Shown here one piece after another: positions 27,833 through 61,928 of a stretch of DNA of 64,000 nt. The stretch's first letter is position 1. Every line of letters starts with the position of its first letter. The stretch comes from an uncultured Klebsiella sp. (GTDB lineage: Bacteria > Verrucomicrobiota > Verrucomicrobiia > Limisphaerales > SXTU01), in contig CAYZJP010000003.1 in assembly GCA_964478755.1 (NCBI GenBank), positions 7,477 through 71,476 of the forward strand, read 5' to 3'. Under the pieces are notes generated by a model that saw only the letters and a list, made by a program, of their open reading frames with translations, searched no databases and was not told where the DNA came from. Position numbers and translations under genes: made by a program.

Positions 27833-29311
27833 TTATCTTCCCCCGTGTCGCAGCAGCTCCCTCATCTGGGCGACCACCTCGGCCCGCTTCGGATCGTCGG
27901 CGAGATTCTTCATTTCCTTCGGATCGTTGTCGTGATCGTAAAGTTCAGCACCCTGACGGCCTTCGTCCCACTCGGTGTAGCGCCACCGTTCCGTGCGAAC
28001 ACTGCGGCCCATGAAGCCGCGTTTGCCCTTGTTCTGCGGTGCGTCAAAAGTCCCGACTGCGAGTCCGCGTGTGACTTGTGAATAGGCGGGCAAGTCCCAT
28101 TTCGCGTTCGGATTTTCCAGCAGCGGACGCAAACTCGTGCCTTGCGTCTTTGCATCCGGCGGCACGCCGCAAAGGTCCGCGAGCGTCCGGTGCAAATCCA
28201 CGAGTTCGACCGTGCGCGGGCACACCTTGCCGTTGGACTTGCTGCCGGGCACCGAAATGATGAGCGGCACGCGGGCGGATTCCTCGAAAATGCTCATCTT
28301 TTGCCAAAGCCCCTTCTCACCGAGATGGTAGCCGTGGTCGCTGTGGAAAAGGATGATCGTGTTGTCCGCGAGTTTGAGCCGCTCGATGGCGTCGAGCAGC
28401 ACACCGACCTGCGCGTCCATAAACGTCGTGGCCGCGTGATACGCTGAGATCGCCTTGCGGCGCAAATCGTCGCTCATCAGCGTCTCTTCCTTGCGTGTGA
28501 TCATGAGTGGCGCGGCGGGAAAAAGCTCCGCGAGATTGGCCGGCACCACGGGCAGCCTGATCTGCTCCGGCGGATAAATCGCGAAGTATTTCTTCGGCGA
28601 AACGTAAGGCGTGTGCGGACGGAAGAATCCGACGGCGAGGTAGAATGGCTTCCCGTTGCGGGAGCTTTCCTCGAGCAGCTTCACGGCTTCGGCCGCGATC
28701 TTGCCGTCGGTCTGATCGGCGTCCGCGCCCTCGGCGGCGAGCCAGCTCAAGGTCGCGCCGAGTTGTTTCAACTCCGTGGCCTTCGCAGTGACAGTGTGCG
28801 TCTTGTCCTCGGCGAGCTGGACGCGTTCGATCATCGTGAAGTCGTCCATGTCACGGCCCTTGGGATTCACCACGCGCTGCCACGAATTCTTGTCGTCAAA
28901 CCCGTCCGTGCCGATCTGCGCGGGCACGGCGTAATGGTAAATCTTCCCGACGCGGGTCACGGAGTAGCCGGCCTTTTGAAACGTCTGCGGCATCGAAACC
29001 GCGTCCGGCATGGCCGTGCGGAAATGCGTTTGATTTTCGTAGGCTTTGGTTGTGTCGGGCCGCAGCCCGGTCATGAACGAGCAGCGCGACGGATTGCAGA
29101 GCGGGAACTGGCAGTAGGCGCGTTCGAACGTCACGCCGCGCGCGGCGAGCCGGTCAATGTTGGGGGACTTCACGACCGGATCGCCGTAGCAGCCGAGCCG
29201 CGCGCAGAGATCGTCGGAGATGATGTGGAGGACGTTGAGGCGTTCGGCGGACGAGGCTCTCGTCGTGATGGCGAACAGGACGCACACGACCACGATTGGC
29301 AAATGCTTCAT
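27833..29311 (-). CDS. formylglycine-dependent sulfatase (iduronate-2-sulfatase-like)
   Basis: Signal peptide. SDDLCARLGCYG. Sulfatase signature CNPSRCSFMTG. FHSDHGYHLGE. Confidence 0.88.
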   Translation of the reverse strand: MKHLPIVVVCVLFAITTRASSAERLNVLHIISDDLCARLGCYGDPVVKSPNIDRLAARGVTFERAYCQFPLCNPSRCSFMTGLRPDTTKAYENQTHFRTAMPDAVSMPQTFQKAGYSVTRVGKIYHYAVPAQIGTDGFDDKNSWQRVVNPKGRDMDDFTMIERVQLAEDKTHTVTAKATELKQLGATLSWLAAEGADADQTDGKIAAEAVKLLEESSRNGKPFYLAVGFFRPHTPYVSPKKYFAIYPPEQIRLPVVPANLAELFPAAPLMITRKEETLMSDDLRRKAISAYHAATTFMDAQVGVLLDAIERLKLADNTIILFHSDHGYHLGEKGLWQKMSIFEESARVPLIISVPGSKSNGKVCPRTVELVDLHRTLADLCGVPPDAKTQGTSLRPLLENPNAKWDLPAYSQVTRGLAVGTFDAPQNKGKRGFMGRSVRTERWRYTEWDEGRQGAELYDHDNDPKEMKNLADDPKRAEVVAQMRELLRHGGR

Positions 29312-31153: not shown

Positions 31154-31915
31154 GTGAAAACTCCATTCAAAATCGAGCGTGTTTTCAACACTACAGATGC
31201 AATTGGAATGCTACTCAACTTGAGAGCAGACGGCTATTGGTCTTTTCGGGGGCATAGGAATCACCGGTGGGGAGTCGGACCTCATCATATGCCGAAGTTG
31301 AAGGACGAGACCGAAAAAGAACTACACATCATCTTAGAGACGCTACGCCTGCAGTTTGTTAAACGCTGTAAGGAATTCAACGAATTCGAGTTGGATGAAC
31401 ACGACTACTGGCAGACTGTGTTCTACGCTCAACACTACGGTTTAAAGACTAGGTTGCTTGATTGGACAAGTAATCCGCTTGTCGCCCTCTACTTCGCAGT
31501 TGAAAATGTGTTGAACACAGAGAACGACGAAAACACTTGTGGATGCGTCTGGGCAATCAAAGTCCCAGAGTCCAAATGGTTCAATTTCTCCTCACTACCA
31601 GGCTATGGAGGAAGAGACGAGGAGAAGTGGCGGCTTGCTAGTTGGATAATGATTAACCCTCCACTAATTACAGATAGGCTGATAAGGCAGAGTGGCAAGT
31701 TTTCATACCATCCATCACGAGATGACAATGACATTTCAGTTCTGCCACGGGCCTGCGGTGAACAAATGATTAAAGTCATTATTGGTGACGAGTCGAACAA
31801 TCCGGCGGCAAGAATACGACAGGAATTGGGCATTATGAACGTCCATCACGCCTCACTCTTTCCTGACCCGGGCGGAGTGGCGCAGTTCATGAACAAACAA
31901 TGGCCTCAGTTATGA
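31154..31915 (+). CDS. FRG-domain protein, on a low-GC single-gene island
   Basis: YWSFRGH, FYAQHYGLKTRLLDWTSNPLVALYFAV and RLIRQSGKFSY match the FRG domain pattern as I remember it. AT-rich codon usage (AAA, GAA, TTA, AGA) unlike the flanks. The start is GTG at 31154 or ATG at 31208. The upstream part of the track ORF (30812-31134) is an out-of-frame overlap with the DUF1501 gene. Confidence 0.75.
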   Translation: MKTPFKIERVFNTTDAIGMLLNLRADGYWSFRGHRNHRWGVGPHHMPKLKDETEKELHIILETLRLQFVKRCKEFNEFELDEHDYWQTVFYAQHYGLKTRLLDWTSNPLVALYFAVENVLNTENDENTCGCVWAIKVPESKWFNFSSLPGYGGRDEEKWRLASWIMINPPLITDRLIRQSGKFSYHPSRDDNDISVLPRACGEQMIKVIIGDESNNPAARIRQELGIMNVHHASLFPDPGGVAQFMNKQWPQL

Positions 31916-34500: not shown

Positions 34501-36948
34501 ATGAAACGCTTTCTGATCTTTGCGTGTGCCTTTTCTGCCTCGTTCAGCCTCTTGGCCGCGCCGGCAGCGGACCCGGTCACGGAGGTGCGCGTCACGCCAT
34601 CGTCGCTGACGCTCGTCAACGCACAGCGACCGCACTCGCTCGTCGTAATGGCGCGCACGAAGGGCGGCTACGACGTGGACCTCACCGGCAAGGCGACCTT
34701 CCGCAGCAGCAGTGAGAAAGTGGCGCGCGTTGATTCGGCCGGTTGGGTGCGGCCAATCGCGAACGGCAGCACAACCATCACCGTGAGCGCCGGCGGGCGC
34801 ACGGTAAAGGTGAGCGTGACCGTGCAATTGCCCGCCGAGCCGGTGGCGATGAGTTTCCGGCAGGACGTGATGCCGGTGTTGTCCAAAGGCGGTTGCAACG
34901 CGGGCGCGTGCCACGGCTATTCGCTCGGAAAAAACGGCTTCAAGCTGACGTTGCGCGGCGCGGACGCGGAGAAGGATTATCCAGCGCTGACGGATGAGTT
35001 CATGGAGCGCCGCATCAACCGTCACAATCCCGCCGCGAGCCTGCTGCTGCTCAAGGCGACCGGCGACCTGCCGCACGAGGGCGGCGTGCGTTTCGACCGC
35101 GGCAGCCTGATGGATGAAACACTGCGCCGCTGGATCACCGAAGGCGCAAAGGACGATGCGCCATCGCTGCCGACGCTGGTGTCGGTCACGATTTATCCAG
35201 AGAAGGTCGTCGCGCTGCCGCGCGCTCGGCAGCAGTTCCAGCTTGTCGCAAAATACAGCGACGGCTCCACGCGCGACGTGTCCCGCACCGGCATCTTCAA
35301 CGTGAACACCGAGCGCGTCGCGAAGGTGGATGACGTTGGTTTAGTGACAGCAACCGATCTCGGCGAGACGGCGATTGTTGCGCGCTACGAAGGAATTTTC
35401 GCCGTGGCAAATTTCATCGTGCTGCCACCGAGCAAGAGTTTTCAGCCGACACCCGTGCCGGAAGACAACTTGGTTGACCGGAATGTCATTTCCAAGTTGA
35501 ACGACCTTCGCATCAAACCCTCCGAGCTGGCCGACGACAAGCGCTTCCTCCGCCGCGTGTCCGTGGACCTCATCGGTGTGCAGCCCAAGCCGGAGGAAGT
35601 GCTCGCGTTCGTCGCCGACACGAGCGCGGACAAGCGCGAAAAGGTGGTGGATGCGTTGATGAAGCGAGCCGAGTTTGTGGACTGGTGGTCATTGAAGTGG
35701 GGCGACCTGTTGCAGAACTCCCGCAACACGATGAGTGACCCGGCGGTGTATGCGTTCCGCGAATGGATTCGCGCGGCCATTGCGCGCAACCTGCCGCTGG
35801 ACCAGTTTGCCCGCGAGATTCTCACGGCGCGCGGCAGTTTTGTGGACAATCCCGCCGCCGGCTACTTCGCCGTCAGCAAGGACACCGACGACACAATGCA
35901 GCGCGCGACGCAGGTCTTCGCCGGCGTGCGGATGCTTTGCGCGCGGTGTCATCCGCACCCGTTCGAGCACTGGACGCAGGCTGACTACTACGGCGTCCAC
36001 AGCTTCTTCAATCAAGTGACGACGAAGGCCGATCCGCGCCAGACCGGTGTGCAGAATGCGAAGACGATTTTGGTGAACTTTTCCGCCGGCAACTCGACCA
36101 ATCCCCGCACCGGCAAGCCGCAGCCTCCGCGTTATCTCGGCGGTGGCGAACCGAAGCTGGATACGGGCATTGACCGCCGCGCCGATTACGCGCAATGGCT
36201 GACTTCGCCGGAAAACCCGCACTTCGTGCGCAGCCTCGCCAATCGCATCTGGAGCTACTTCTTCCATCGCGGCATCATTGACCCCGTGGACGACTTGCGT
36301 TCGACCAGCCCGCCCATCAACCCGGCGCTGCTCGACGCGCTGACGAAGGATTTCGTGGAGCACCAGTTCGACATGCGCCATCTCATGCGCGTCATCGTCA
36401 CATCGCGCACGTATCAGCGCAGCTCGACGCCGAACGAAACCAACGGCCACGACGACGCGAACTTCTCGCACGCCATCCCGCGCCGCCTGCCGGCCGAGGC
36501 GATGCTCGACTCACTCGTGCAGGCGACCGGCGTGAAGGAAAACTTCGGCGGTGCTCCGGCGGGCTTCAGCGCCGCGCAACTGCCGGACGGAAATGTGCAG
36601 AGCGATTTCCTGAAACTCTTCGGCAAGCCCTCGCGCATGGAGGCGTGCGAGTGCGAGCGCGACCTCGGCGCGAACATGCTGCAGGCACTGCACTTCATCA
36701 ACGGCAAGTCCATCCTCGACCGCGTCACAAGCGGCAGCGGGCGCCCCGCGCTGCTGCTCGCGCAGAAGCCTGGCGATGACAGGCTCATCGAGCAGCTTTA
36801 CCTCTGGTCGCTCGCGCGCAAGCCGACCTCTGCCGAGATCGCGCTGGCAAAGAAGTTCATCGCCTCTTACGCAGACAAGCGCGCCGAGGCCGCGCAGGAT
36901 TTTATGTGGAGCCTGCTCAACAGCCGCGATTTCACGATGCTCCACTGA
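34501..36948 (+). CDS. Big_2 + DUF1549 (PSCyt2) + DUF1553 (PSD1) protein
   Basis: FRQDVMPVLSKGGCNAGACHG, CARCHPHPFEHWTQADYY, LRRVSVDLIGVQP, and a C-terminal MLQALHFINGKS / WSLLNSRDF. Confidence 0.88.
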   Translation: MKRFLIFACAFSASFSLLAAPAADPVTEVRVTPSSLTLVNAQRPHSLVVMARTKGGYDVDLTGKATFRSSSEKVARVDSAGWVRPIANGSTTITVSAGGRTVKVSVTVQLPAEPVAMSFRQDVMPVLSKGGCNAGACHGYSLGKNGFKLTLRGADAEKDYPALTDEFMERRINRHNPAASLLLLKATGDLPHEGGVRFDRGSLMDETLRRWITEGAKDDAPSLPTLVSVTIYPEKVVALPRARQQFQLVAKYSDGSTRDVSRTGIFNVNTERVAKVDDVGLVTATDLGETAIVARYEGIFAVANFIVLPPSKSFQPTPVPEDNLVDRNVISKLNDLRIKPSELADDKRFLRRVSVDLIGVQPKPEEVLAFVADTSADKREKVVDALMKRAEFVDWWSLKWGDLLQNSRNTMSDPAVYAFREWIRAAIARNLPLDQFAREILTARGSFVDNPAAGYFAVSKDTDDTMQRATQVFAGVRMLCARCHPHPFEHWTQADYYGVHSFFNQVTTKADPRQTGVQNAKTILVNFSAGNSTNPRTGKPQPPRYLGGGEPKLDTGIDRRADYAQWLTSPENPHFVRSLANRIWSYFFHRGIIDPVDDLRSTSPPINPALLDALTKDFVEHQFDMRHLMRVIVTSRTYQRSSTPNETNGHDDANFSHAIPRRLPAEAMLDSLVQATGVKENFGGAPAGFSAAQLPDGNVQSDFLKLFGKPSRMEACECERDLGANMLQALHFINGKSILDRVTSGSGRPALLLAQKPGDDRLIEQLYLWSLARKPTSAEIALAKKFIASYADKRAEAAQDFMWSLLNSRDFTMLH

Positions 36949-36957
36949 GCGCGCAGA

Positions 36958-37105
36958 TTTTAGCCACGGATGAAACACGGATTAAACACGGAGAGAATAC
37001 AAGCTAAACGCGGAGATGCGTTCAGTCATGCTCGCATTCGATTCTCCGGCGTGCCGACCTCACCTTTCATCCGTGTTTCGTCAGTGTTTCATCCGTGGCT
37101 AAAAA
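36958..37105. repeat. family B inverted-repeat element filling the intergenic gap
   Basis: tagccacggatgaaacacggattaaacacgg - about 80 nt - ccgtgtttcgtcagtgtttcatccgtggctaaaaatc. The arms are reverse complements. Confidence 0.85.
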
Positions 37106-38460
37106 TCATTTTTGCTTTTCTCCTCGGCAGCCTTTCAGCCAATGCCACAGATGTGAGCTACCAGCGCGACGTGTGGCCGATTTTTCGGCGGCACTGCGTC
37201 GGCTGTCACAGCGAACAGAAGGTCAAGGGCGGTTTGCGACTCGACGACGTGAGCGCGCTGCGGAAGGGCGGCAAGACCGGCCCGCTCTTCGTCGCGGGCA
37301 AGCCGGACAAGAGCTTGCTCATCAAACAAATCAGCGGCGAAAAACCCGAAATGCCTGACAACGAGCCGCCGCTCTCCGCCGCTAAGGTGAAGCTGCTGCG
37401 CGACTGGGTCGTGCAGGGCGCAAAGATTGATGCCGCGCCAAAGCCCGGCGGTCCGCCGGTGGTCATCCCCGCGATTTACGCCACCGCGCCCGCCGTGACG
37501 AGCGTGACCATCAGCCCGGATGGCAAGCTCGCCACCGCGGCGTGCCGCAGCGAGGTCGTGCTGTTCAATGTGGACGATGACAGCGCGCCGCGCCGTTTGC
37601 CGACGGACTTCGATCTCGTCACGCACGTTGAGTTCAGCCCGGATGGGAAGCGATTGGCCGTCGCGGGCGGTTCGCCGCAGCAGTTTGGTGGAGTGATTTT
37701 CTTCGATGCGGAAGGACGCCGCCAGTCCTCGCGGCGCATTGGCAACGACACGTTGTTCAAGGGCAACTTCGCGCCCGATGGCCAGGCCATCGCGCTCGGC
37801 ACGGCCACGGGCGCGGTGGTCATCGTGCCTGTGGACACGAACGCAGCGCCGAAGTCCATCGAGTTGCACAGCGACTGGGTGATGGCCGTGGCTTACACCA
37901 TGGACGGCAAACAGCTCGTCAGTGGCAGCCGCGACAAGACGACGAAGTTGAGCAGCGTCGAGAGCCTGAAGCTGCTGCGCTCGGTGGATCAGTCCACTGA
38001 CATCATCAACGCCGTCGCCGCTGATGGGACAAACGCCATCTCTGCCGGCAACGCGCGCACAGTGACTGGCTTCGATCTCAAGCTCGCGCTCACCGTTGTG
38101 GAAGTCACCGGCTCCGGCAACGGCGCGCAGCCCGTCAACAACCGCGATCAATACGTCCGCAACTTCGAGGCGCAGGCCGAGCCGGTGATGGCGCTCGCCA
38201 CGAGCGGCGACCGCAAGCTGCTCGCCGTCGCCACGCGCGGTGCCGAGGTGCGGATTTACCAGACCGACAATCGGCAGCGGAAAACTTCCATCACAAACGC
38301 GCCTGCGCCCGTTCTCGGCATCGCGCTCAGCCGTGATGGCACGCGCCTCATTCTTGGCAGCAAGAGCGGGCAGGTGCAGATTTACGACGTGGGTTCGGCC
38401 AAGCTTGTGAAGTCGCTCGTGCCGGTTCCCACACAACCGATCAGGGCTGCTTCAAGGTAG
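36970..38460 (+). CDS. planctomycete-type cytochrome c domain (PSCyt1) + WD40 beta-propeller protein
   Basis: WPIFRRHCVGCHSEQKVKGGLRLD (CxxCH), PEMPDNEPPLS, then WD40-like blades. The ATG at 36970 is in the repeat's left arm. GTG at 37084 (MFHPWLKIIFAFLLGSLSANA) is an alternative start that gives a normal signal peptide. Confidence 0.8.
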   Translation: MKHGLNTERIQAKRGDAFSHARIRFSGVPTSPFIRVSSVFHPWLKIIFAFLLGSLSANATDVSYQRDVWPIFRRHCVGCHSEQKVKGGLRLDDVSALRKGGKTGPLFVAGKPDKSLLIKQISGEKPEMPDNEPPLSAAKVKLLRDWVVQGAKIDAAPKPGGPPVVIPAIYATAPAVTSVTISPDGKLATAACRSEVVLFNVDDDSAPRRLPTDFDLVTHVEFSPDGKRLAVAGGSPQQFGGVIFFDAEGRRQSSRRIGNDTLFKGNFAPDGQAIALGTATGAVVIVPVDTNAAPKSIELHSDWVMAVAYTMDGKQLVSGSRDKTTKLSSVESLKLLRSVDQSTDIINAVAADGTNAISAGNARTVTGFDLKLALTVVEVTGSGNGAQPVNNRDQYVRNFEAQAEPVMALATSGDRKLLAVATRGAEVRIYQTDNRQRKTSITNAPAPVLGIALSRDGTRLILGSKSGQVQIYDVGSAKLVKSLVPVPTQPIRAASR

Positions 38461-54162: not shown

Positions 54163-54560
54163 CGCTACAACCAGCATCATGTGATCCTCGAAGTGGATCC
54201 GGACTTCCTGAAAGACCCCTCTTCGCTGGACAAGATTTTTGTCAAATCGAACACGGGACATCAAATTCCGCTTGCCGGCGTCGCGCAGTTTAAGACCGTC
54301 AACTCCAGTCTGTCCGTCAGTCATCAAGGCCAGTTCCCCGCCGTCACAATCTCGTTCAATCTCGCGCCCGGCGTCGCACTGGGGCAGGCCACGGAAGTCA
54401 TTCAGAAGACCGCCGAGGAGCTGCATATGCCATCCAGCATTTCAGGCAGCTTCCAAGGGACGGCGCAAATCTTTCGCGCGTCGTTGACGAATATGCCGCT
54501 GCTCATCGCGGCGGCGCTGCTCGCCGTTTATGTCGTCTTGGGCATGCTCCACGAAAGCCT
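54163..54560 (+). pseudogene. internal fragment (~130 codons) of an RND efflux permease (AcrB/MdtB/MdtC-like)
   Basis: RYNQHHVILEVDPDFLKDPSSLDKIFVKSNTGHQIPLAGVAQFK...SVSHQGQFPAVTISFNLAPGVALGQA...GSFQGTAQIF...LLIAAALLAVYVVLGMLHES is colinear with the C-terminal periplasmic loop/TM region of ~1040-aa RND pumps. Stops lie just upstream (54145, 54160). Similarity ends after LHES. Confidence 0.7.
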
Positions 54561-54601
54561 CATTGGCGGTTTGCAGGGGAGGCCACCCCATCGCCGCTCC
54601 G

Positions 54602-54715
54602 GAGCAGTAATTCAGTGCTCCCAAGCGGTGGTTGAGTGCTTCTGAGCAGTAATCCAGTGCTCCCGACCACTGCACTCCTGCTTCCGAGCTGTGGCTGAGT
54701 GCTCCCGAGCACTGA
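54602..54715. repeat. degenerate ~42-bp tandem repeat
   Basis: gagcagtaattcagtgctccc... at 54602 and gagcagtaatccagtgctccc... at 54644, with a partial third unit gagctgtggctgagtgctcccgagcactg. Confidence 0.6.
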
Positions 54716-54754
54716 TTTATGGCGAGGAAGCAGTGATTTAGGGGAGCGGATCAC

Positions 54755-55036
54755 TCACCGGGTCCATCGAAGCATTGGCCTTGGACATCGCAGCCCAGAC
54801 CAACAGCTTCCGAGCACAACGGGAGGAAAGCCGCTGAGGCTGTAGCCCAGCGATGGCGACCAGCCGGTGAACTGGACGATGCTCTCCCACAGTCGTTTTG
54901 GGCCTAAGACCGGCAGGCCGAAACCCACGAGCATCACGACCACCGAGAAGAGCGCAAAGGCCCGCAACTCCAGCGGCACGGCGGAGAACTTGGACAGGAA
55001 GCCGACCCAAGAATTTCGTTGTGGCGGTTGGCTCAT
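54755..55036 (-). CDS. possible small membrane protein (93 aa)
   Basis: One clear TM helix (LRAFALFSVVVMLVGFGLPVL). No homology recognised. It lies in a decayed region. Confidence 0.25.
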   Translation of the reverse strand: MSQPPQRNSWVGFLSKFSAVPLELRAFALFSVVVMLVGFGLPVLGPKRLWESIVQFTGWSPSLGYSLSGFPPVVLGSCWSGLRCPRPMLRWTR

Positions 55037-55111: not shown

Positions 55112-55247
55112 CTCCCTCACCCCTGCCCTCTCCCGCTGGGAGAGGGAGGACGTTCGACTGCGGGGGGCGTTGCGCGGCGCGCTCCCGGAGATGACGCGTC
55201 CCGGCCCGCTCCCCTCTCCCAGCGGGAGAGGGAAAGGGTGAGGGAGA
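55112..55247. repeat. family A palindromic element, intergenic copy
   Basis: ctccctcacccctgccctctcccgctgggagagggagg ... ctcccctctcccagcgggagagggaaagggtgagggag. Confidence 0.85.
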
Positions 55248-55297
55248 AAAGCGACGAAGCTTTTGAGGTTTGAGAGTTCACGGGCCGGTTCGTGGAT

Positions 55298-56685: not shown

Positions 56686-56784
56686 AGCGAGTGAGGTCGA
56701 GCGTAGTCACCAGCAAGGAAGCTGGAAGGAGAAAATTTGCCCCCGCTTGCCTCTCGCTGCTCCCTCTCCTACCTTCCGCGCCGC

Positions 56785-59700
56785 ATGTCGAAGAAGCCGC
56801 CGCCGTCTGCCAGTGTCATCCGCCTCCACGGCGTGCGGCACAACAACCTCAAGGGCTTCGACCTCGACCTCCCGCTCGGCAAGCTCATCGTCGTCACCGG
56901 CCTGAGTGGGTCCGGCAAAAGCTCGCTCGCCTTCGACACGCTCTACGCCGAGGGCCAGCGGCGCTACATCGAGACCTTCTCGCCCTACGCGCGGCAGTTC
57001 TTCGACCGCATGGACAAGCCGCGGGTGGACAGCATCGAGGGCATCCCGCCGGCCATCGCCATCGAGCAGCGCAACGCCGTCCGCACCACGCGCAGCACCG
57101 TCGGCACGATGACGGAGATTTGCGATCACCTGAAAATCCTCTGGCCGCATCTCGCGACGTTGCATTGCCGGAAGTGCGGCAAGCCCGTGGAGAAAGAGCC
57201 GCCGCAGAAGGTTTGGGAGCGGGTGAATGCGGAACACGGAATGCGGAATGCGGAATGTCTGGTGACGTTCGACCTCGCGCTTTCCGAAAAGCTCGCGCTC
57301 AAGGAATCCCTCGACCTCATCGCCAGGCAGGGCTACCAGCGGCTTCTCCTCAATGGCGAAATGGTCCGCCTCGACGACGCGCTCGTGAAACTACGGAGCG
57401 CCGAGCATCGCTCGGCAGGAGCGGACGAGCACACCACGGCCGAGCAATGCCCGGCGCTCCGACGAGGCCTTGCCGCACTCACCATTGTCCAAGACCGCCT
57501 CAAGCTCGCCGCCGCCAGCCGCGCCCGTTTCATCGAAGCCTGCGAGCAGGCCTACCACTTCGGCAAAGGGAAACTCGCGATTTACGACGTGTCGAACGAT
57601 CCGGCCATTCCGCACTCCGCACTCCACACTCCGCATTTCTTCTCCAACCGTTTCCACTGCGCGCAGTGCGATCTCGATTATCGCGAGCCTTCCCCCGCGC
57701 TCTTCTCGTTCAACCACCCCGTCGGCGCGTGTCCGGCGTGCAAGGGCTTCGGGCGCGTCATAGGCATTGACTATGAGCTGGCGATTCCCGACCGCTCGAT
57801 CTCAATCAAGGCTGGCGCGGTGAAGCCGTGGCGCACCGGCACCGGCGCGGAGTCGCTGGCCGACCTCGCGAAGTTCTGCAAGAAACTCGGCGTGCCGATG
57901 GACGTGCCGTTCCGCGATTTGAGCGAAGCGCACCAACGCTGGGTCATCGACGGCGACCCCGGCTACGACTCGAACGATCCCGCGAACTCGTGGCCAAAGA
58001 AGTGGTATGGCGTGAAAGGCTACTTCCGCTGGCTGGAGAGCAAGAGCTACAAGATGCACGTGCGCGTGCTGCTCTCGCGCTACCGCAGCTACACGCGCTG
58101 CCCCGCGTGCGAGGGGAAGCGCCTTCAGCCGGAAAGTCTTTTGTATCGCGTCGAAGTGCCAAGTCTCACCGGTTTGTCTGCTGACACTCTCCCCCTCACC
58201 CCGGCCCTCTCCCGCTGGGAGAGGGAGACACGCAGTCCGCGTCTTGCCGAATCGAAGCGCCCCGCACAGACACCGCCGCTAGCTGCGTCATTCGGTTCTC
58301 ATGCAACCGCGCCTTCAACTAGGGGCACAAGCCTGCAACTAACGCTGACTGCCATTCCCCCTCTCCCAGCGGGAGAGGGCCGGGGTGAGGGAGAACGGCC
58401 CGTTCAGTTGACACTGGCGGACTTCTACTCCCTCTCCGTGAGCCGCGCCCTCGCTGTCATCACCGCGTTGCACGAGCGCCTCTTTCCCATCTCCCATCTC
58501 CCATCTCCTATCTCCTCCGCCTCCCCGCTCGCTCACGCGCTCGAAGAAGTCCGCTCCCGCCTTGCCTACCTCGTCGAGGTCGGCCTCGGCTACCTCACGC
58601 TCGACCGCGCCACGCGCACGCTTTCCGGCGGCGAGACCGAGCGCGTAAATCTCACCACCTGTCTCGGCACGCGCCTCGTCAACACCCTCTACGTCCTCGA
58701 CGAGCCGAGCGTGGGCCTGCACCCGCGCGACACCGCGCGCCTCGTCGTCATTCTCCAACGCCTGCGCGATCTTGGGAACACCGTCATCGTCGTCGAACAC
58801 GAAGCCGCCGTGATGCGCGCCGCCGACCAGATCGTGGACCTCGGCCCCGGCCACGGAGAGACCGGCGGTGAACTCGTCTTTCAAGGCACGCTCGCGGAAC
58901 TTCTCCGCCATCCCGTCTCGCTCACTGGGCAATACCTGAGCGGGCGAAAGATGGTCGAAGAACGGAATCCGAGGCCGGTGGAGTTGCGCGGAGCCGCGTC
59001 GTCGAACAACGCCACGTTCCCCCTCACCCCGGCCCTCTCCCCAAGGGAGAGGGAGGAGCGCAGCCCGCGTCCTGGCGAGTCCATGGCCGTCCGAAGTCAG
59101 AGCAGCACAGCTTCGCGCGAAACGCGGACTGCCATTCCCCCTCTCCCCCAGGGAGAGGGCCGGGGTGAGGGGAAAGGAATCGCCCAGCATTCTGATGGTA
59201 GAGAACCATCTACGAACTCCCCCGCTCACTTTCTCACCCTCTCCGGCGCCTCCGCCCACAATCTCAAAAACCTCACCGTCTCCATTCCGCTTGGCCGCTT
59301 CGTCTGCCTCACCGGCGTGAGCGGCTCCGGGAAGTCCACGCTCGTCCGCGACTGCCTGCTGCCAGCGCTCGCCTCGGTGCTCAAAGTCGCCGAAACTCAG
59401 GCGCTACCAGGTGAAACGGACGACAAAGTGACCAAGACAGACATCAAACCAAGTGGGCAGGAGGTGAAACTGATTGGGTTTGATGTGAAACAGATTCAGT
59501 CGGACGTGAAACCTAGTGGGTCTGACATTAAACTAAGTGGGTCTGACGTTAAACTTAGTGGGTCTGGCAATAAAGTTTATGAATCTGGCGTTCAATTCAG
59601 TGACTTGAATGCCAAAGTTGACGACTCTGGCGTCAAACCAAGCGACTTTGACGAGCCATCCGGTGAGTTTGTCCAGCCCGGCACCGCCCGCGTCATCGGA

Positions 59701-60687
59701 GCCGGGCACTTGAGCCGGTTTATCCTCGTGGACCAGACGCCGCTGGGCAAAACGCCGCGCTCCACCCCCGCCGTTTACATCGGAGCCTTCGATGACTTGC
59801 GCGAAGTCTTCGCCCAGACGGAACTCGCCAGGCAGCGCGGCCTGAACAGCAGCGCCTTCAGCTTCAACTCCGCCGCCGGCCAGTGCGACCGCTGCCGGGG
59901 CGCGGGCTTCGAGAAGATTGAAATGCAGTTCCTCAGCGACGTGTTCATCAAGTGCCCCGCGTGCGAGGGACGGCGCTATCGGGAGCACATTCTGGAGGTG
60001 AAGGTGGAGGTTCAAGCTTCAAGGTTTCAGGTTTCAGGAGCCGGGACTTCCGCGGGCCGACCGCACGCGAAGGCATCCGTCTCCACCTTGAACCTTGAAC
60101 CTGAAACCTTGAACCTGTCCTGGAGCATCGCCGACCTCCTCGCCGCCAGCGTGGATGAATCCCTCGCCTTCCTCGCCGCGCTGCCGGACTCCAAACCCGC
60201 CCAGCGCGCCGCCGCCGCGCTGCGCGTGTTGCAGGAAGTCGGCCTCGGCTACCTGCGCCTCGGCCAGCCGATCAACACCTTGAGTGGCGGCGAGAGCCAG
60301 CGGCTGAAACTCGCGGCGCACCTCGCTGAAGCAAGCAGTCGAGAGTCGAGAGTCGAGAGCCGAGAGCCGGAAGCAGCCGCCGTAGCACAGCCCTCGACCC
60401 TCGACCCTCGACTCTCGACCCTCTTCGTCTTCGACGAGCCGACGACTGGCCTGCACTTCGAGGACGTGCGCGTGCTCGTCGCCGTCTTCCAGCGGCTCGT
60501 GGACGCGGGCCATACCGTCCTCGTCATCGAGCACAACCTCGATGTGATCCGCGCCGCCGACTGGTTGATTGACCTCGGCCCCGAAGCGGGCGCCGCCGGC
60601 GGCGAACTCGTCATCGCCGGCACACCGGAGGAGGTGGCGAAGTGCGAGCGCAGCCACACTGGCCGCTTTCTGCGGGACGCGCTTTAG
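56785..60687 (+). CDS. UvrA-family ABC ATPase (excinuclease subunit A or paralogue) expanded by multiple in-frame repeat insertions
   Basis: [14 protein letters not shown], Walker [32 protein letters not shown], Zn-module CxxC pairs, [25 protein letters not shown]. Second half: [62 protein letters not shown] at 56785 (MSKKPPP) is preferred over the track start at 56737. Confidence 0.85.
58189..58393. repeat. family A palindromic element, intragenic (UvrA-family ORF)
   Basis: ctccccctcaccccggccctctcccgctgggagagggag ... gactgccattccccctctcccagcgggagagggccggggtgaggg. Translated as [13 protein letters not shown]...[14 protein letters not shown]. Confidence 0.88.
59019..59175. repeat. family A palindromic element, second intragenic copy in the same ORF
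   Basis: ttccccctcaccccggccctctccccaagggagagggagg ... gactgccattccccctctcccccagggagagggccggggtgagggg. Translated as [13 protein letters not shown]...[14 protein letters not shown]. Confidence 0.88.
59440..59670. repeat. AT-rich 21-bp tandem array (~10-11 units) inside the UvrA-family ORF
   Basis: Units such as gacatcaaaccaagtgggcag / gacgtgaaacctagtgggtct / gacattaaactaagtgggtct / gacgttaaacttagtgggtct / ggcgtcaaaccaagcgacttt. They encode the heptads [70 protein letters not shown]. Confidence 0.85.
60008..60116. repeat. hairpin whose arms are heptamer tandem repeats (GGTTCAA/GGTTTCA vs CCTTGAA/CCTGAAA)
   Basis: aggttcaagcttcaaggtttcaggtttcagg - about 47 nt - ccttgaaccttgaacctgaaaccttgaacctg. 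Confidence 0.8.
60338..60423. repeat. hairpin whose arms are heptamer tandem repeats (GTCGAGA vs CCCTCGA)
   Basis: gtcgagagtcgagagtcgagagccgagagccgg - about 21 nt - ccctcgaccctcgaccctcgactctcgaccctc. Confidence 0.8.
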
Positions 60688-61832: not shown

Positions 61833-61928
61833 CGGGCTGGAAATACAGGAACCAAACAGGGCTGACAAGTGCCAACCGGCAGTTTTAAGAGCCTTGGTTC
61901 CGCGCGCCGCATCGCGCATGATGCGCGG

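What the first reader, a model, noticed from the sequence alone, without database searches (positions are those of the whole stretch)
59440..59670. AT-rich 21-bp tandem array encoding D[IV]K[LP]SGS-type heptads inside the second ATPase module
About ten head-to-tail 21-nt units sit between the second Walker A ([19 protein letters not shown]) and the [11 protein letters not shown] motif. Each unit is exactly 7 codons. The segment is visibly much lower in GC than the rest of the gene. Several units also contain short internal hairpins (tggcgttcaa..ttgaatgcca, cgtcaaa..tttgacg). A unit length divisible by three means copy-number change would never break the frame. That is the hallmark of contingency or variable-linker repeats, but it is unexpected in a DNA-repair ATPase.
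Basis: seen in the sequence. Interest (0 to 1): 0.6.

Follow-up and report, generated by a model that had tools for sequence, protein, structure and literature searches.

The report
In-frame 21-base repeat in UvrA loop
A real but probably harmless stretch of twelve decaying 21-base repeats lengthens a floppy surface loop of the DNA-repair protein UvrA in one verrucomicrobial genome, in a gene that collects in-frame repeats of many kinds.

Summary
Window 59419-59670 is a degenerate head-to-tail array of 12 units of 21 nt (7 codons, consensus DVKLSGS). Identity at lag 21 is 0.61, against 0.27±0.03 for codon shuffles. It contains the lowest-GC 150-nt window of the 64 kb (0.41). GC3 is 0.48, against 0.81 for the rest of the gene.

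It lies in frame in an intact 1300-aa UvrA, between Walker A and the Q-loop of the second ATPase module. No relative has it. That spacing is 43-80 residues in 130 intervals measured in the 119 other homologues listed, and 139 here. AlphaFold gives a confident ATPase core, with pLDDT 27-40 and almost no regular structure across the array.

In four relatives the same loop carries a different short tandem array. The gene also holds heptamer arrays, hairpins and two MITE-like elements, all in frame.

Best reading: a coding minisatellite that expanded in place by slippage in a disordered, hypervariable loop and is tolerated as a passenger. The contingency-switch reading is not supported. Only three units are near-identical, the longest exact repeat is 12 nt, and copy change cannot switch the frame.

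Copy-number variation could not be tested, because no close relative or reads were available. This is a new member of a known kind, of modest interest.

The parts
56785..60687 (+). uvrA-1 gene: 1300 codons plus stop. The ATG at 56785 matches the family N-terminus MSK(K)PPP. The ORF as listed starts at a TTG at 56737.
   Evidence: ORF list and translation. TIGR00630 875.9 bits, UvrA_DNA-bind and UvrA_inter above their cut-offs. PDB UvrA chains at E about 1e-200 in 5-6 blocks. Family consensus N-terminus.
59314..59340 (+). Walker A of the second ATPase module (GVSGSGKST), the upstream anchor of the loop.
   Evidence: Invariant in 30 relatives.
59419..59670 (+). The full 21-nt (7-codon) tandem array: 12 units. 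Consensus of the three central units is GACGTTAAACTTAGTGGGTCT = DVKLSGS. AT-rich and rich in codons rare for this gene.
   Evidence: Lag-21 identity 0.606 against 0.273±0.031 for shuffles. GC 0.456, GC3 0.476. Codon usage: AAA 10 of 11 Lys codons, AGT/TCT 10 of 13 Ser, GGG 5 of 9 Gly, against 14 of 43, 14 of 98 and 11 of 92 in the rest of the gene. pLDDT 27-40.
59503..59565 (+). The three youngest, most homogeneous units ([21 protein letters not shown]). This is the only part where slippage is still plausible.
   Evidence: 17-19 of 21 identical pairwise. TRF 59515-59574, 2.9 copies at 87%. Exact 12-nt repeat AGTGGGTCTGAC at 21-nt spacing.
59431..59616 (+). Net insertion relative to 36 single-length relatives: 62 residues, aa 883-944 of the 1300-aa protein.
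   Evidence: MAFFT alignment, columns with occupancy below 25%. Regional alignment.
59731..59763 (+). Q-loop motif [11 protein letters not shown] of the second ATPase module, the downstream anchor of the loop.
58171..58398 (+). MITE-like palindromic element inserted in frame, copy 1. It encodes [11 protein letters not shown]...[12 protein letters not shown] and is unique to this genome's uvrA-1.
   Evidence: Inverted repeat I3, 53-nt arms, 89% complementary. Absent from relatives.
59008..59193 (+). MITE-like palindromic element inserted in frame, copy 2, in the linker between the two ATPase modules.
   Evidence: Inverted repeat I4, and direct repeats D1 and D3 to copy 1 at 83-92%. Absent from relatives.
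57225..57637 (+). Pair of heptamer arrays, (GAATGCG)4.7 and the complementary (TCCGCAC)3.9. They form 37-nt inverted arms 338 nt apart, in frame.
   Evidence: (I5). A GAATGCG-type array lies at the same gene offset in L002 and L003.
57391..57461 (+). Short hairpin insert (57394-57461) that is in frame. 57391-57447 of it (19 residues) is absent from relatives.
   Evidence: Inverted repeat I9, 23-nt arms, 91% complementary. Insert list.
58485..58515 (+). (TCCCATC)4.4 heptamer array, in frame.
60008..60116 (+). Heptamer-repeat hairpin (AGGTTTC / ACCTTGA arms) in frame, at a site where relatives carry other heptamer hairpins.
   Evidence: Inverted repeats I7, I10 and I20. TRF. Alignment. pLDDT below 50 for fragment residues 282-290.
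60338..60423 (+). Heptamer-repeat hairpin, (AGTCGAG)4.3 / (CCCTCGA)4.7, in frame between the signature motif and Walker B of module II.
   Evidence: Inverted repeats I6 and I8. TRF.

Best explanation
The segment is a coding minisatellite: a 21-nt, 7-codon unit amplified head to tail inside a loop of UvrA that this verrucomicrobial lineage already had.

The loop is disordered, acidic and hypervariable. It lies between the Walker A helix and the Q-loop of the second ATPase module.

The proposed mechanism is slipped-strand mispairing or unequal recombination of an AT3-rich seed. The centre of the array (59503-59586) was amplified or homogenised most recently. The outer units are older copies that have diverged and drifted toward the genome's GC-rich third positions.

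The unit is exactly seven codons and the loop lies outside the catalytic core. Each gain or loss therefore only lengthens or shortens a floppy tether of about 84 residues, and the array persists as a tolerated passenger with no dedicated function.

It is one of several tandem arrays found at this loop in the family, the largest and the only AT-rich one seen. The gene also absorbs heptamer arrays, hairpins and MITE-like elements in frame.

Shown: the periodicity, the composition, the position, absence from all relatives listed, predicted disorder, and repeat turnover at the same site in relatives.

Inferred: origin in place, the slippage mechanism, and neutrality.
For: 1. Real periodic array, in frame, in an intact UvrA with all ATPase and zinc motifs.

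2. Unique to this genome.
- The Walker A II to Q-loop spacing is 139 residues here. It is 43-80 in the 130 other intervals measured in the 119 other listed homologues.
- The net insert is aa 883-944.
- The protein's cluster has one member, seen on one contig.

3. The site is a tandem-repeat hot spot. The loop holds (TCACTCC)3.6 in L002, a 21-period x1.9 array in L003, (CAATCGG)4.6 in L004 and (ACCCCAG)3.6 in L005.

4. Star-like similarity among units.
- Most outer units resemble the central units more than their own neighbours.
- Identity to the consensus falls with distance from the centre (Spearman rho -0.67, p 0.016).

5. GC3 gradient.
- Per unit: 0.71, .57, .57, .57, .43, .29, .29, .14, .57, .43, .57, .57, then 1.0 in the flank.
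- The four central units have 8 of 28 GC3 positions and the outer eight have 32 of 56 (Fisher p 0.02).
- At third positions the outer units differ from the central consensus by 18 AT-to-GC and 3 GC-to-AT changes.
- This fits older edges ameliorating in a GC3 0.81 genome.

6. A native AT3-rich seed is not improbable. 22 seven-codon windows with GC3 of 2/7 or less exist elsewhere in the gene, all in or next to the other insert and variable regions.

7. The 3' units ([21 protein letters not shown]) align with the ancestral linker motif DDS-PSE-P of relatives.

8. AlphaFold with 86 sequences.
- Mean pLDDT is 78.5 and pTM 0.77, with 275 residues at 90 or above.
- Fragment residues 70-151 (nt 59425-59670) fall below 50, with 10-residue block means of 27-40.
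- The segment has no regular structure apart from one short helix at residues 90-95.
- The core matches UvrA 2r6f_A at E 1.2e-34.

9. No sign of a donor or of a DNA or RNA function.
- No other copy in the window.
- None in 596 Gb of genomes with an exact and a codon-degenerate pattern.
- One chance hit in metagenomes.
- None in phages or plasmids.
- Protein matches only to unrelated low-complexity heptad proteins.
- No promoter or terminator, fold z = -1.65, no Rfam hit.
Against: - Units that differ from the consensus by 30-45% are still well below the gene's GC3 (0.57 against 0.81). A long residence in place should have ameliorated them further. This leaves room for a foreign seed, or for selection for AT-rich or rare codons.
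- The centre used for the gradient tests was chosen after seeing the data, and the third-position direction test alone is not significant (p 0.14).
- The rest of the genome could not be searched, so other copies of the unit cannot be excluded.
- Neutrality is assumed, not tested.
- No strain-level data exist, so ongoing slippage is not shown.
Confidence: 0.6

Rival explanations
1. Imported DNA. A piece of AT-rich foreign DNA that was already repetitive, or that supplied the seed, was inserted in frame into the loop by illegitimate recombination and then tolerated.
For: - The array contains the lowest-GC 150-nt window in 64 kb, 4.6 sd below the mean.
- GC3 is 0.48 against 0.81, and the codons are strongly atypical.
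- The window holds other low-GC islands that look acquired: an FRG-domain gene at 31.2-31.9 kb and a truncated AcrB fragment at 54.2-54.6 kb.
- Even the diverged units remain AT-rich.
Against: - No donor or similar sequence appears in genomes, metagenomes, phages, plasmids or 1.84 billion representative proteins.
- The edges grade into the ancestral linker rather than ending abruptly.
- The GC3 gradient from centre to edge is not expected if all units arrived together.
- No terminal repeats or target-site duplication in register were seen by reading the flanks.
Confidence: 0.15
2. Selected function of the insert. At the protein level it could be a longer flexible or polyampholyte tether that modulates ATPase II, DNA or partner contacts. 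At the translation level it could be a cluster of rare codons that pauses ribosomes after the Walker A helix, to aid folding or tune expression.
For: - The frame is kept open across 84 extra codons.
- All relatives keep a loop of about 35-45 residues here, so the loop itself is retained.
- The array is dense in codons rare for this gene.
- Lys at unit position 3 is present in 10 of 12 units.
Against: - The insert is unique to one genome among the 120 homologues listed.
- All ten of those Lys codons are AAA. This points to shared descent rather than selection on the residue.
- The peptide is predicted disordered.
- The open frame is explained simply by purging of broken alleles.
Confidence: 0.1
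3. A true hypervariable (contingency or VNTR) locus. Unit number changes at high frequency in the population and tunes UvrA activity.
For: - Head-to-tail units of 21 nt.
- Three central units 81-90% identical, with a 12-nt exact repeat.
- The loop changes its repeat content between lineages.
Against: - Nine of 12 units are too diverged for efficient slippage.
- A change of unit number cannot switch the frame.
- The gene is not in a surface or host-interaction class.
- No second allele is on record.
Confidence: 0.05
4. A DNA-level element embedded in the coding sequence. It would be an array of protein-binding sites phased every two helical turns, like iterons or a nucleoid-protein nucleation site, as in the lambda origin inside gene O.
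For: The period of 21 bp is two helical turns. The array is AT-rich. It lies in a part of the gene that encodes a dispensable linker.
Against: - No promoter-like site.
- No DnaA box nearby: the one TTWTNCACA match in the window is at 28342, which is chance level.
- No initiator gene next to it.
- No other copies.
- Only three well-conserved units.
Confidence: 0.04
5. Assembly artefact: a chimeric join or mis-assembled repeat in a metagenome-assembled genome.
For: The source appears to be a single NCBI contig without a close relative. The composition is foreign-looking.
Against: - Both flanks are the same gene, in the same frame, at homologous linker positions.
- The units decay gradually toward both edges.
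- The near-identical part is only 63 nt and its units differ from one another, so collapse or expansion by an assembler is unlikely.
Confidence: 0.04

Closest known systems
In-frame palindromic or REP elements in repair genes: Rickettsia RPEs, and the GTAG/CGTC REPs inside uvrA of Opitutus terrae and Thioalkalivibrio (PMC3733652; review PMC10969869)
   Same: Extra repeat-derived peptide segments sit in frame in an otherwise intact UvrA, presumably in loops or linkers. A verrucomicrobial host is among the published cases. The same gene here carries hairpin and MITE-like inserts of that type.
   Different: The 21-nt array is a direct tandem repeat, not a palindrome (fold z -1.65). It is AT-rich and has no other copy in the window.
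Intragenic coding minisatellites or VNTRs (in-frame tandem repeats, for example in bacterial and fungal surface proteins; see the background of PMC2996958)
   Same: The unit length is a multiple of three. The units are head to tail, with a homogenised centre and decaying edges. Length change does not cause a frameshift. The encoded peptide is disordered.
   Different: The host is a cytosolic housekeeping repair ATPase. Most units are degenerate. Variation in copy number among strains is not demonstrated.
Simple-sequence contingency loci (phase variation by repeats of 1-7 nt; for example PMC8262952, PMC12721329)
   Same: Tandem repetition inside or next to a gene, and mutation by slippage.
   Different: Those loci need many perfect copies, and they switch expression by frame or by promoter spacing. 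Here the unit is 21 nt and degenerate, and it cannot shift the frame.
Heptanucleotide tandem arrays of bacteria (abundance of heptameric repeats noted in PMC4692102; TAACTGA repeats in PMC4679880)
   Same: In the relatives the same UvrA loop carries arrays of 7-nt units. These also give a 7-residue peptide period when read in frame.
   Different: The array here has no 7-nt sub-period: lag 7 gives 0.20. It also has 12 units of 21 nt rather than about 4 units of 7 nt.
Lambda origin iterons inside gene O (from general knowledge, not tested here)
   Same: AT-rich direct repeats of about 20 bp lie in a coding region that encodes an inter-domain linker.
   Different: There is no initiator gene, no DnaA boxes and no sign of replication function.

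Membership tests
UvrA (excinuclease ABC subunit A), the host gene | Curated family models reach their cut-offs | tested here: met
   TIGR00630 scores 875.9 bits against a cut-off of 729.8. NF001503 scores 899.3 against a cut-off of 1147, which is not reached; the match is split into 5 stretches by the inserts.
UvrA (excinuclease ABC subunit A), the host gene | Two ABC ATPase modules with Walker A, Q-loop, signature, Walker B and H-loop, plus zinc modules, a UvrB-interaction domain and an insertion DNA-binding domain | tested here: met
   Motifs read in the translation: [62 protein letters not shown] and the CxxC pairs. Pfam UvrA_DNA-bind scores 46.0 against 23.2, and UvrA_inter 30.3 against 23.3. 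The AlphaFold model of module II matches 2r6f_A at E 1.2e-34.
Coding minisatellite / in-frame VNTR | Head-to-tail units with a period that is a multiple of 3, beyond chance | tested here: met
   Lag-21 identity 0.606 against 0.273±0.031; 0 of 5000 shuffles reach it.
Coding minisatellite / in-frame VNTR | Copy number differs among strains or within a population | not testable with these tools
   No relative exceeds 82% local identity. The cluster has one member. The source genome is absent from the contig collections. More distant relatives lack the array altogether.
Contingency (phase-variable) locus | A run of many identical short units that slips at high rate | tested here: not met
   Only 3 units share 17-19 of 21 bases. 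The others match the consensus at 12-15 of 21. The longest exact repeat at unit spacing is 12 nt.
Contingency (phase-variable) locus | A change in unit number switches expression, by frame or by promoter spacing | tested here: not met
   The unit is 7 codons. The array is internal to the ORF and no promoter-like site overlaps it.
REP / RPE / MITE-type inserted element | Palindromic or terminal-inverted-repeat structure | tested here: not met
   The fold is no better than shuffles (z -1.65). No inverted repeat spanning the array appears among the 25 longest pairs listed for the gene.
REP / RPE / MITE-type inserted element | Many dispersed copies in the same genome | tested here: inconclusive
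   There is no other copy in the 64-kb window at up to 3 mismatches. The rest of the genome was not available.
Iteron array / replication origin | Tandem direct repeats of 17-22 bp next to an initiator gene, DnaA boxes and an unwinding element | tested here: not met
   The repeat period fits. However, there is no initiator gene in the neighbourhood. The only DnaA-box-like site in the window is at 28342, which is chance level.

The most novel reading that the evidence does not exclude
The nucleotide-excision-repair genes of this verrucomicrobial clade may be specific sinks, or targets, for short tandem repeats. Of 44 period-7 arrays found in about 113 kb from five genomes, 37 lie in the five uvrA-1 genes. 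The rest lie in uvrC, in uvrA-2, or just downstream of uvrA-2.

On this reading the repeats would make repair capacity evolvable. Gain or loss of a 7-nt unit would reversibly break the frame of uvrA-1, giving a mutator or repair-off switch. The 21-nt array would be a frame-neutral, runaway member of the same process that tunes loop length or translation speed.
Probability: 0.08. Interest if true: 0.7.

Novelty: new member of a known kind. Interest (0 to 1): 0.3.

Why it matters
By itself the array matters little. It shows that a core repair ATPase can carry an 84-residue disordered repeat in the loop between Walker A and the Q-loop and still keep every catalytic motif. That marks the loop as a permissive insertion site in UvrA.

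The context is more useful. The same loop turns over different tandem repeats in each lineage, and uvrA-1 concentrates heptamer arrays, hairpins and MITE-like elements in frame. This extends the published observation that repeat elements sit inside uvrA and other repair genes (PMC3733652). It also offers a compact system for asking whether that association is targeted, selected, or merely tolerated.

Tried and rejected
- Word-index protein search with the 88-aa insert returned nothing, not even the source protein. It is insensitive for this low-complexity query and I give it little weight.
- Full HMMER scan of 1.84 billion representatives gave 37 hits. The eight sequences I read, including the top hit, were unrelated low-complexity heptad proteins with repeats such as SGNDYKS, FEVKLPG and GSDIKNV. 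I rejected them as homologues or donors.
- Exact DNA pattern across two units: 0 hits in genome contigs. This also shows the source genome is not in that collection. There was one hit in metagenome contigs, which is a single chance match with no array. A codon-degenerate two-unit pattern gave 0 hits.
- blastn against phages and plasmids found no match.
- Look-ups of the source contig through two window proteins found nothing on record, so the organism is named only through its homologues (Limisphaerales / Pedosphaera-like).
- First AlphaFold run with 31 close homologues: mean pLDDT 41, uninformative even for the core. It was replaced by the 86-sequence run. An alignment of all 120 hits exceeded the size limit.
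- Relation to the second 21-nt array at 54561-54833: best match 9 of 21 in any rotation or strand, typical of shuffles. Rejected.
- Derivation from a heptamer array (3 x 7 = 21): no lag-7 or lag-14 signal. Rejected.
- Internal promoter, terminator, known RNA family, DnaA boxes: none.
- Significant RNA or DNA hairpins in the array: not beyond shuffles.
- A 'GACGAC' motif on both sides of the insert was considered as a target-site duplication. The two copies are not in the same phase of the 21-nt unit, so this was left as coincidence (reading).
Full report
**What is there**

The finding lies in a 1300-codon gene on the + strand, 56785-60687. The ATG at 56785 matches the family N-terminus.

The gene is a UvrA:
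- TIGR00630 scores 875.9 bits against a cut-off of 729.8.
- Pfam UvrA_DNA-bind and UvrA_inter are above their cut-offs.
- Solved UvrA structures match at E about 1e-200, but in five or six separate blocks.

The protein has about 360 residues more than a canonical UvrA. The gaps between the aligned blocks are in-frame inserts. One of them covers query residues 880-963, between Walker A of the second ATPase module and its Q-loop.

**Checking the observation**

Read in the gene's frame, 59419-59670 is twelve consecutive 21-nt units: [84 protein letters not shown].

*Periodicity*
- Base identity at lag 21 is 0.606, with similar values at lags 42 and 63.
- Other lags that are multiples of 3 give 0.14-0.31.
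- Shuffled codons give 0.273±0.031, and none of 5000 shuffles reaches the observed value.
- Tandem Repeats Finder reports only pieces, because only the three central units (59503-59565) are close to one another, at 17-19 of 21. The outer units match the consensus at 12-15 of 21.

*Composition*
- GC is 0.456 and GC3 0.476, against 0.655 and 0.806 for the rest of the gene.
- The region contains the lowest-GC 150-nt window of the whole 64 kb, at 0.407 against a mean of 0.639 with sd 0.051.
- Codon choice is atypical for the gene: AAA for 10 of 11 Lys, AGT/TCT for 10 of 13 Ser, GGG for 5 of 9 Gly.

*Hairpins*
- The array as a whole does not fold better than shuffles: z -1.65, with 12 of 200 shuffles as good.

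I extend it by one unit at the 5' end.

**Relatives**

The best homologues are UvrA proteins of Verrucomicrobiota that their sources name Limisphaerales, Pedosphaera or Verrucomicrobiae. They come in two forms, single-length (1056-1196 aa) and fused double-length (about 2000 aa).

The exact protein is alone in its 90% cluster and was seen on one contig. No relative exceeds 82% local identity, so no strain-level comparison is possible.

None of the relatives has the array:
- The Walker A II to Q-loop spacing is 43-80 residues in the 130 other intervals I could measure in the 119 other listed homologues. It is 139 here.
- In a regional and a full-length alignment, the net insertion is aa 883-944, nt 59431-59616.
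- The relatives do have a loop here, about 35-45 residues, acidic and rich in Ser, Pro and Ala, and poorly conserved. This is longer than in canonical UvrA.
- The last units of the array (…[18 protein letters not shown]) align with the relatives' DDS-PSE-P motif.

**The loop is a repeat hot spot**

I fetched the DNA of four relatives. In each one the same loop has GC of 0.55-0.66 and carries a different short tandem array:

| Locus | Array in the loop |
|---|---|
| L002 | (TCACTCC)3.6 |
| L003 | 21-period x1.9 of CCCCATC-like units |
| L004 | (CAATCGG)4.6, perfect |
| L005 | (ACCCCAG)3.6 |

The window's array differs from these in three ways: a 21-nt unit with no 7-nt sub-period (lag 7 = 0.20), twelve copies, and low GC.

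**Structure**

A first AlphaFold run with 31 close homologues was uninformative, with mean pLDDT 41.

With 86 sequences, the model of the second ATPase module (nt 59218-60684) has mean pLDDT 78.5 and pTM 0.77, with 275 residues at 90 or above. Residues 70-151 of the fragment are below 50, with block means of 27-40. They show no regular structure apart from one short helix at residues 90-95. Those residues correspond to nt 59425-59670, which is the array.

The core matches B. stearothermophilus UvrA 2r6f_A at E 1.2e-34. The peptide is a polyampholyte: 13 Ser, 12 Asp, 11 Lys, 9 Gly, net charge -5, mean hydropathy -0.70. The array therefore lengthens a disordered loop that emerges from a well-folded domain.

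**Origin**

No donor was found:
- No other copy in the window at up to 3 mismatches.
- No match in 596 Gb of species-representative genomes, with either an exact two-unit pattern or a codon-degenerate one.
- One chance match in metagenome contigs.
- Nothing in phage or plasmid collections.
- The peptide finds only unrelated low-complexity heptad proteins among 1.84 billion representatives.

Within the array the similarity pattern is star-like: most outer units resemble the central units more than their neighbours. Identity to the consensus falls with distance from the centre (rho -0.67, p 0.016).

GC3 runs 0.71.57.57.57.43.29.29.14.57.43.57.57 and jumps to 1.0 in the flank. The four central units give 8 of 28 and the outer eight give 32 of 56 (p 0.02). 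At third positions the outer units differ from the central consensus by 18 AT-to-GC and only 3 GC-to-AT changes.

This pattern is expected if an AT3-rich master unit was amplified or homogenised most recently in the centre, while older copies at the edges drift toward the genome's GC-rich codon usage.

A native seed of that composition is not far-fetched. 22 seven-codon windows with GC3 of 2/7 or less occur elsewhere in the gene, all in or next to the other insert and variable regions.

The caveats are real. The centre was chosen after looking at the data. The direction test alone is not significant (p 0.14). Even the diverged units are well below the gene's GC3. A foreign seed therefore stays a live rival.

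**Function at the DNA or RNA level**

I found no support for one:
- No sigma-70-like promoter or intrinsic terminator in 58900-60300.
- No Rfam family.
- No significant fold.
- No DnaA boxes nearby.
- No initiator-like gene next to it.

**The contingency reading**

Classical contingency loci need many identical units, and a change in unit number that switches expression. Here only three units are near-identical, the longest exact repeat at unit spacing is 12 nt, and the unit is seven codons.

The 'contingency' half does not. Whether the three central units still vary in the population cannot be tested without reads or close relatives.

**Context**

The array is one of at least eight in-frame repeat-derived segments in this gene:
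- Two copies of a MITE-like palindromic element, at 58171-58398 and 59008-59193. They encode LTPALS…RE and PPLP.GEGRGEG and are unique to this genome.
- A short hairpin at 57394-57461.
- Six period-7 arrays of 3.9-4.7 copies, several of them paired as hairpin arms.

All six period-7 arrays with at least 3.4 copies in the 64-kb window lie inside this 3.9-kb gene. Across the window and four related loci, 37 of 44 such arrays lie in uvrA-1. The other seven are in uvrC, in uvrA-2, or just downstream of uvrA-2.

In-frame REP elements in uvrA and other repair genes have been described, including both uvrA genes of the verrucomicrobium Opitutus terrae. The authors suggest that linkers and loops tolerate them (PMC3733652). 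The Rickettsia RPEs are the classic case.

**Verdict**

The array is real and unusual in composition, and it is unique to this genome among the sequences searched. It is best explained as a tolerated coding minisatellite in a permissive, repeat-prone loop of UvrA.

It is a new member of a known kind, of modest interest. The concentration of heptamer arrays in the excision-repair genes of this clade is the more intriguing lead. I followed it only partly.

Noticed in passing
window 57225-57257, 57609-57635, 58485-58515, 60085-60116, 60337-60366, 60391-60423; L002-L005 uvrA-1 genes: Period-7 tandem arrays of about 4.4 copies (31 nt), often paired as hairpin arms, are concentrated in uvrA-1. All 6 in the 64-kb window are inside the gene, as are 37 of 44 across about 113 kb from five genomes. 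The other 7 are in uvrC, in uvrA-2 or just after uvrA-2. The same heptamers (CACTAAT, CAATCGG, CCCCAGA, AGTGTTC, GAATGCG) recur at different sites and in different genomes. A 7-nt unit would shift the frame if it slipped.
   Followed up: partly
window 58171-58398 and 59008-59193 (in uvrA-1); about 55150-55250 (intergenic): A MITE-like palindromic element with terminal inverted repeats CCCCTCACCCCGGCCCTCTCCC… is inserted twice in frame in uvrA-1. It encodes LTPALSP..RE… and …PPLP.GEGRGEG and is absent from relatives. A related copy lies upstream in non-coding DNA, seen as [12 protein letters not shown] in a spurious ORF.
   Followed up: partly
window 54561-54833: This is a second 21-nt tandem array with 6-8 units. 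It is the only other segment of the window with lag-21 identity of 0.5 or more. Its consensus, TCAGTGCTCCCGAGCAGTGAT, contains an internal palindrome (AGTGCTC-CC-GAGCACT). Its sequence is unrelated to the uvrA array (9 of 21, chance level). It sits just after a truncated, low-GC AcrB fragment (54181-54642, Pfam ACR_tran profile positions 760-889 of 1021).
   Followed up: partly
window 61866 to beyond 64000 (+); 60684 to about 61880 (-): A second UvrA paralogue (uvrA-2) starts near 61866 and runs off the window. In relatives uvrA-1 and uvrA-2 are adjacent, overlapping or fused into one protein of about 2000 aa. Here a minus-strand gene for a protein of about 398 aa lies between them. That protein has no Pfam hit and appears by eye to have a signal peptide.
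   Followed up: partly
window about 31200-31915 (+): A low-GC island (minimum 0.41) encodes an FRG-domain protein (PF08867, E 3.9e-19). It looks horizontally acquired.
   Followed up: partly
window 36965-36992 and 37065-37097: A pair of 11-nt tandem arrays, (CACGGATGAAA)2.5 and (TTTCATCAGTG)3.0, look like near reverse complements of each other. They lie in a low-GC patch at 36896-37145.
   Followed up: no
L002-L005 and alignment, site after [12 protein letters not shown] (window 60008-60116): At this one site, relatives carry several distinct classes of insert peptide: …RSSRREEAHSEI…, …EAAGKVISEEVISKKSPK…SLITNYS, …QGPSVQSPKSG…LDLGLGTLDS and …EAKRNGESKQCSVFSVQSKK…LNTEH. In the window and in L002 the insert at this site is a hairpin whose two arms are complementary heptamer arrays. 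This suggests repeated replacement, or co-evolution of the arms, at a fixed position.
   Followed up: no
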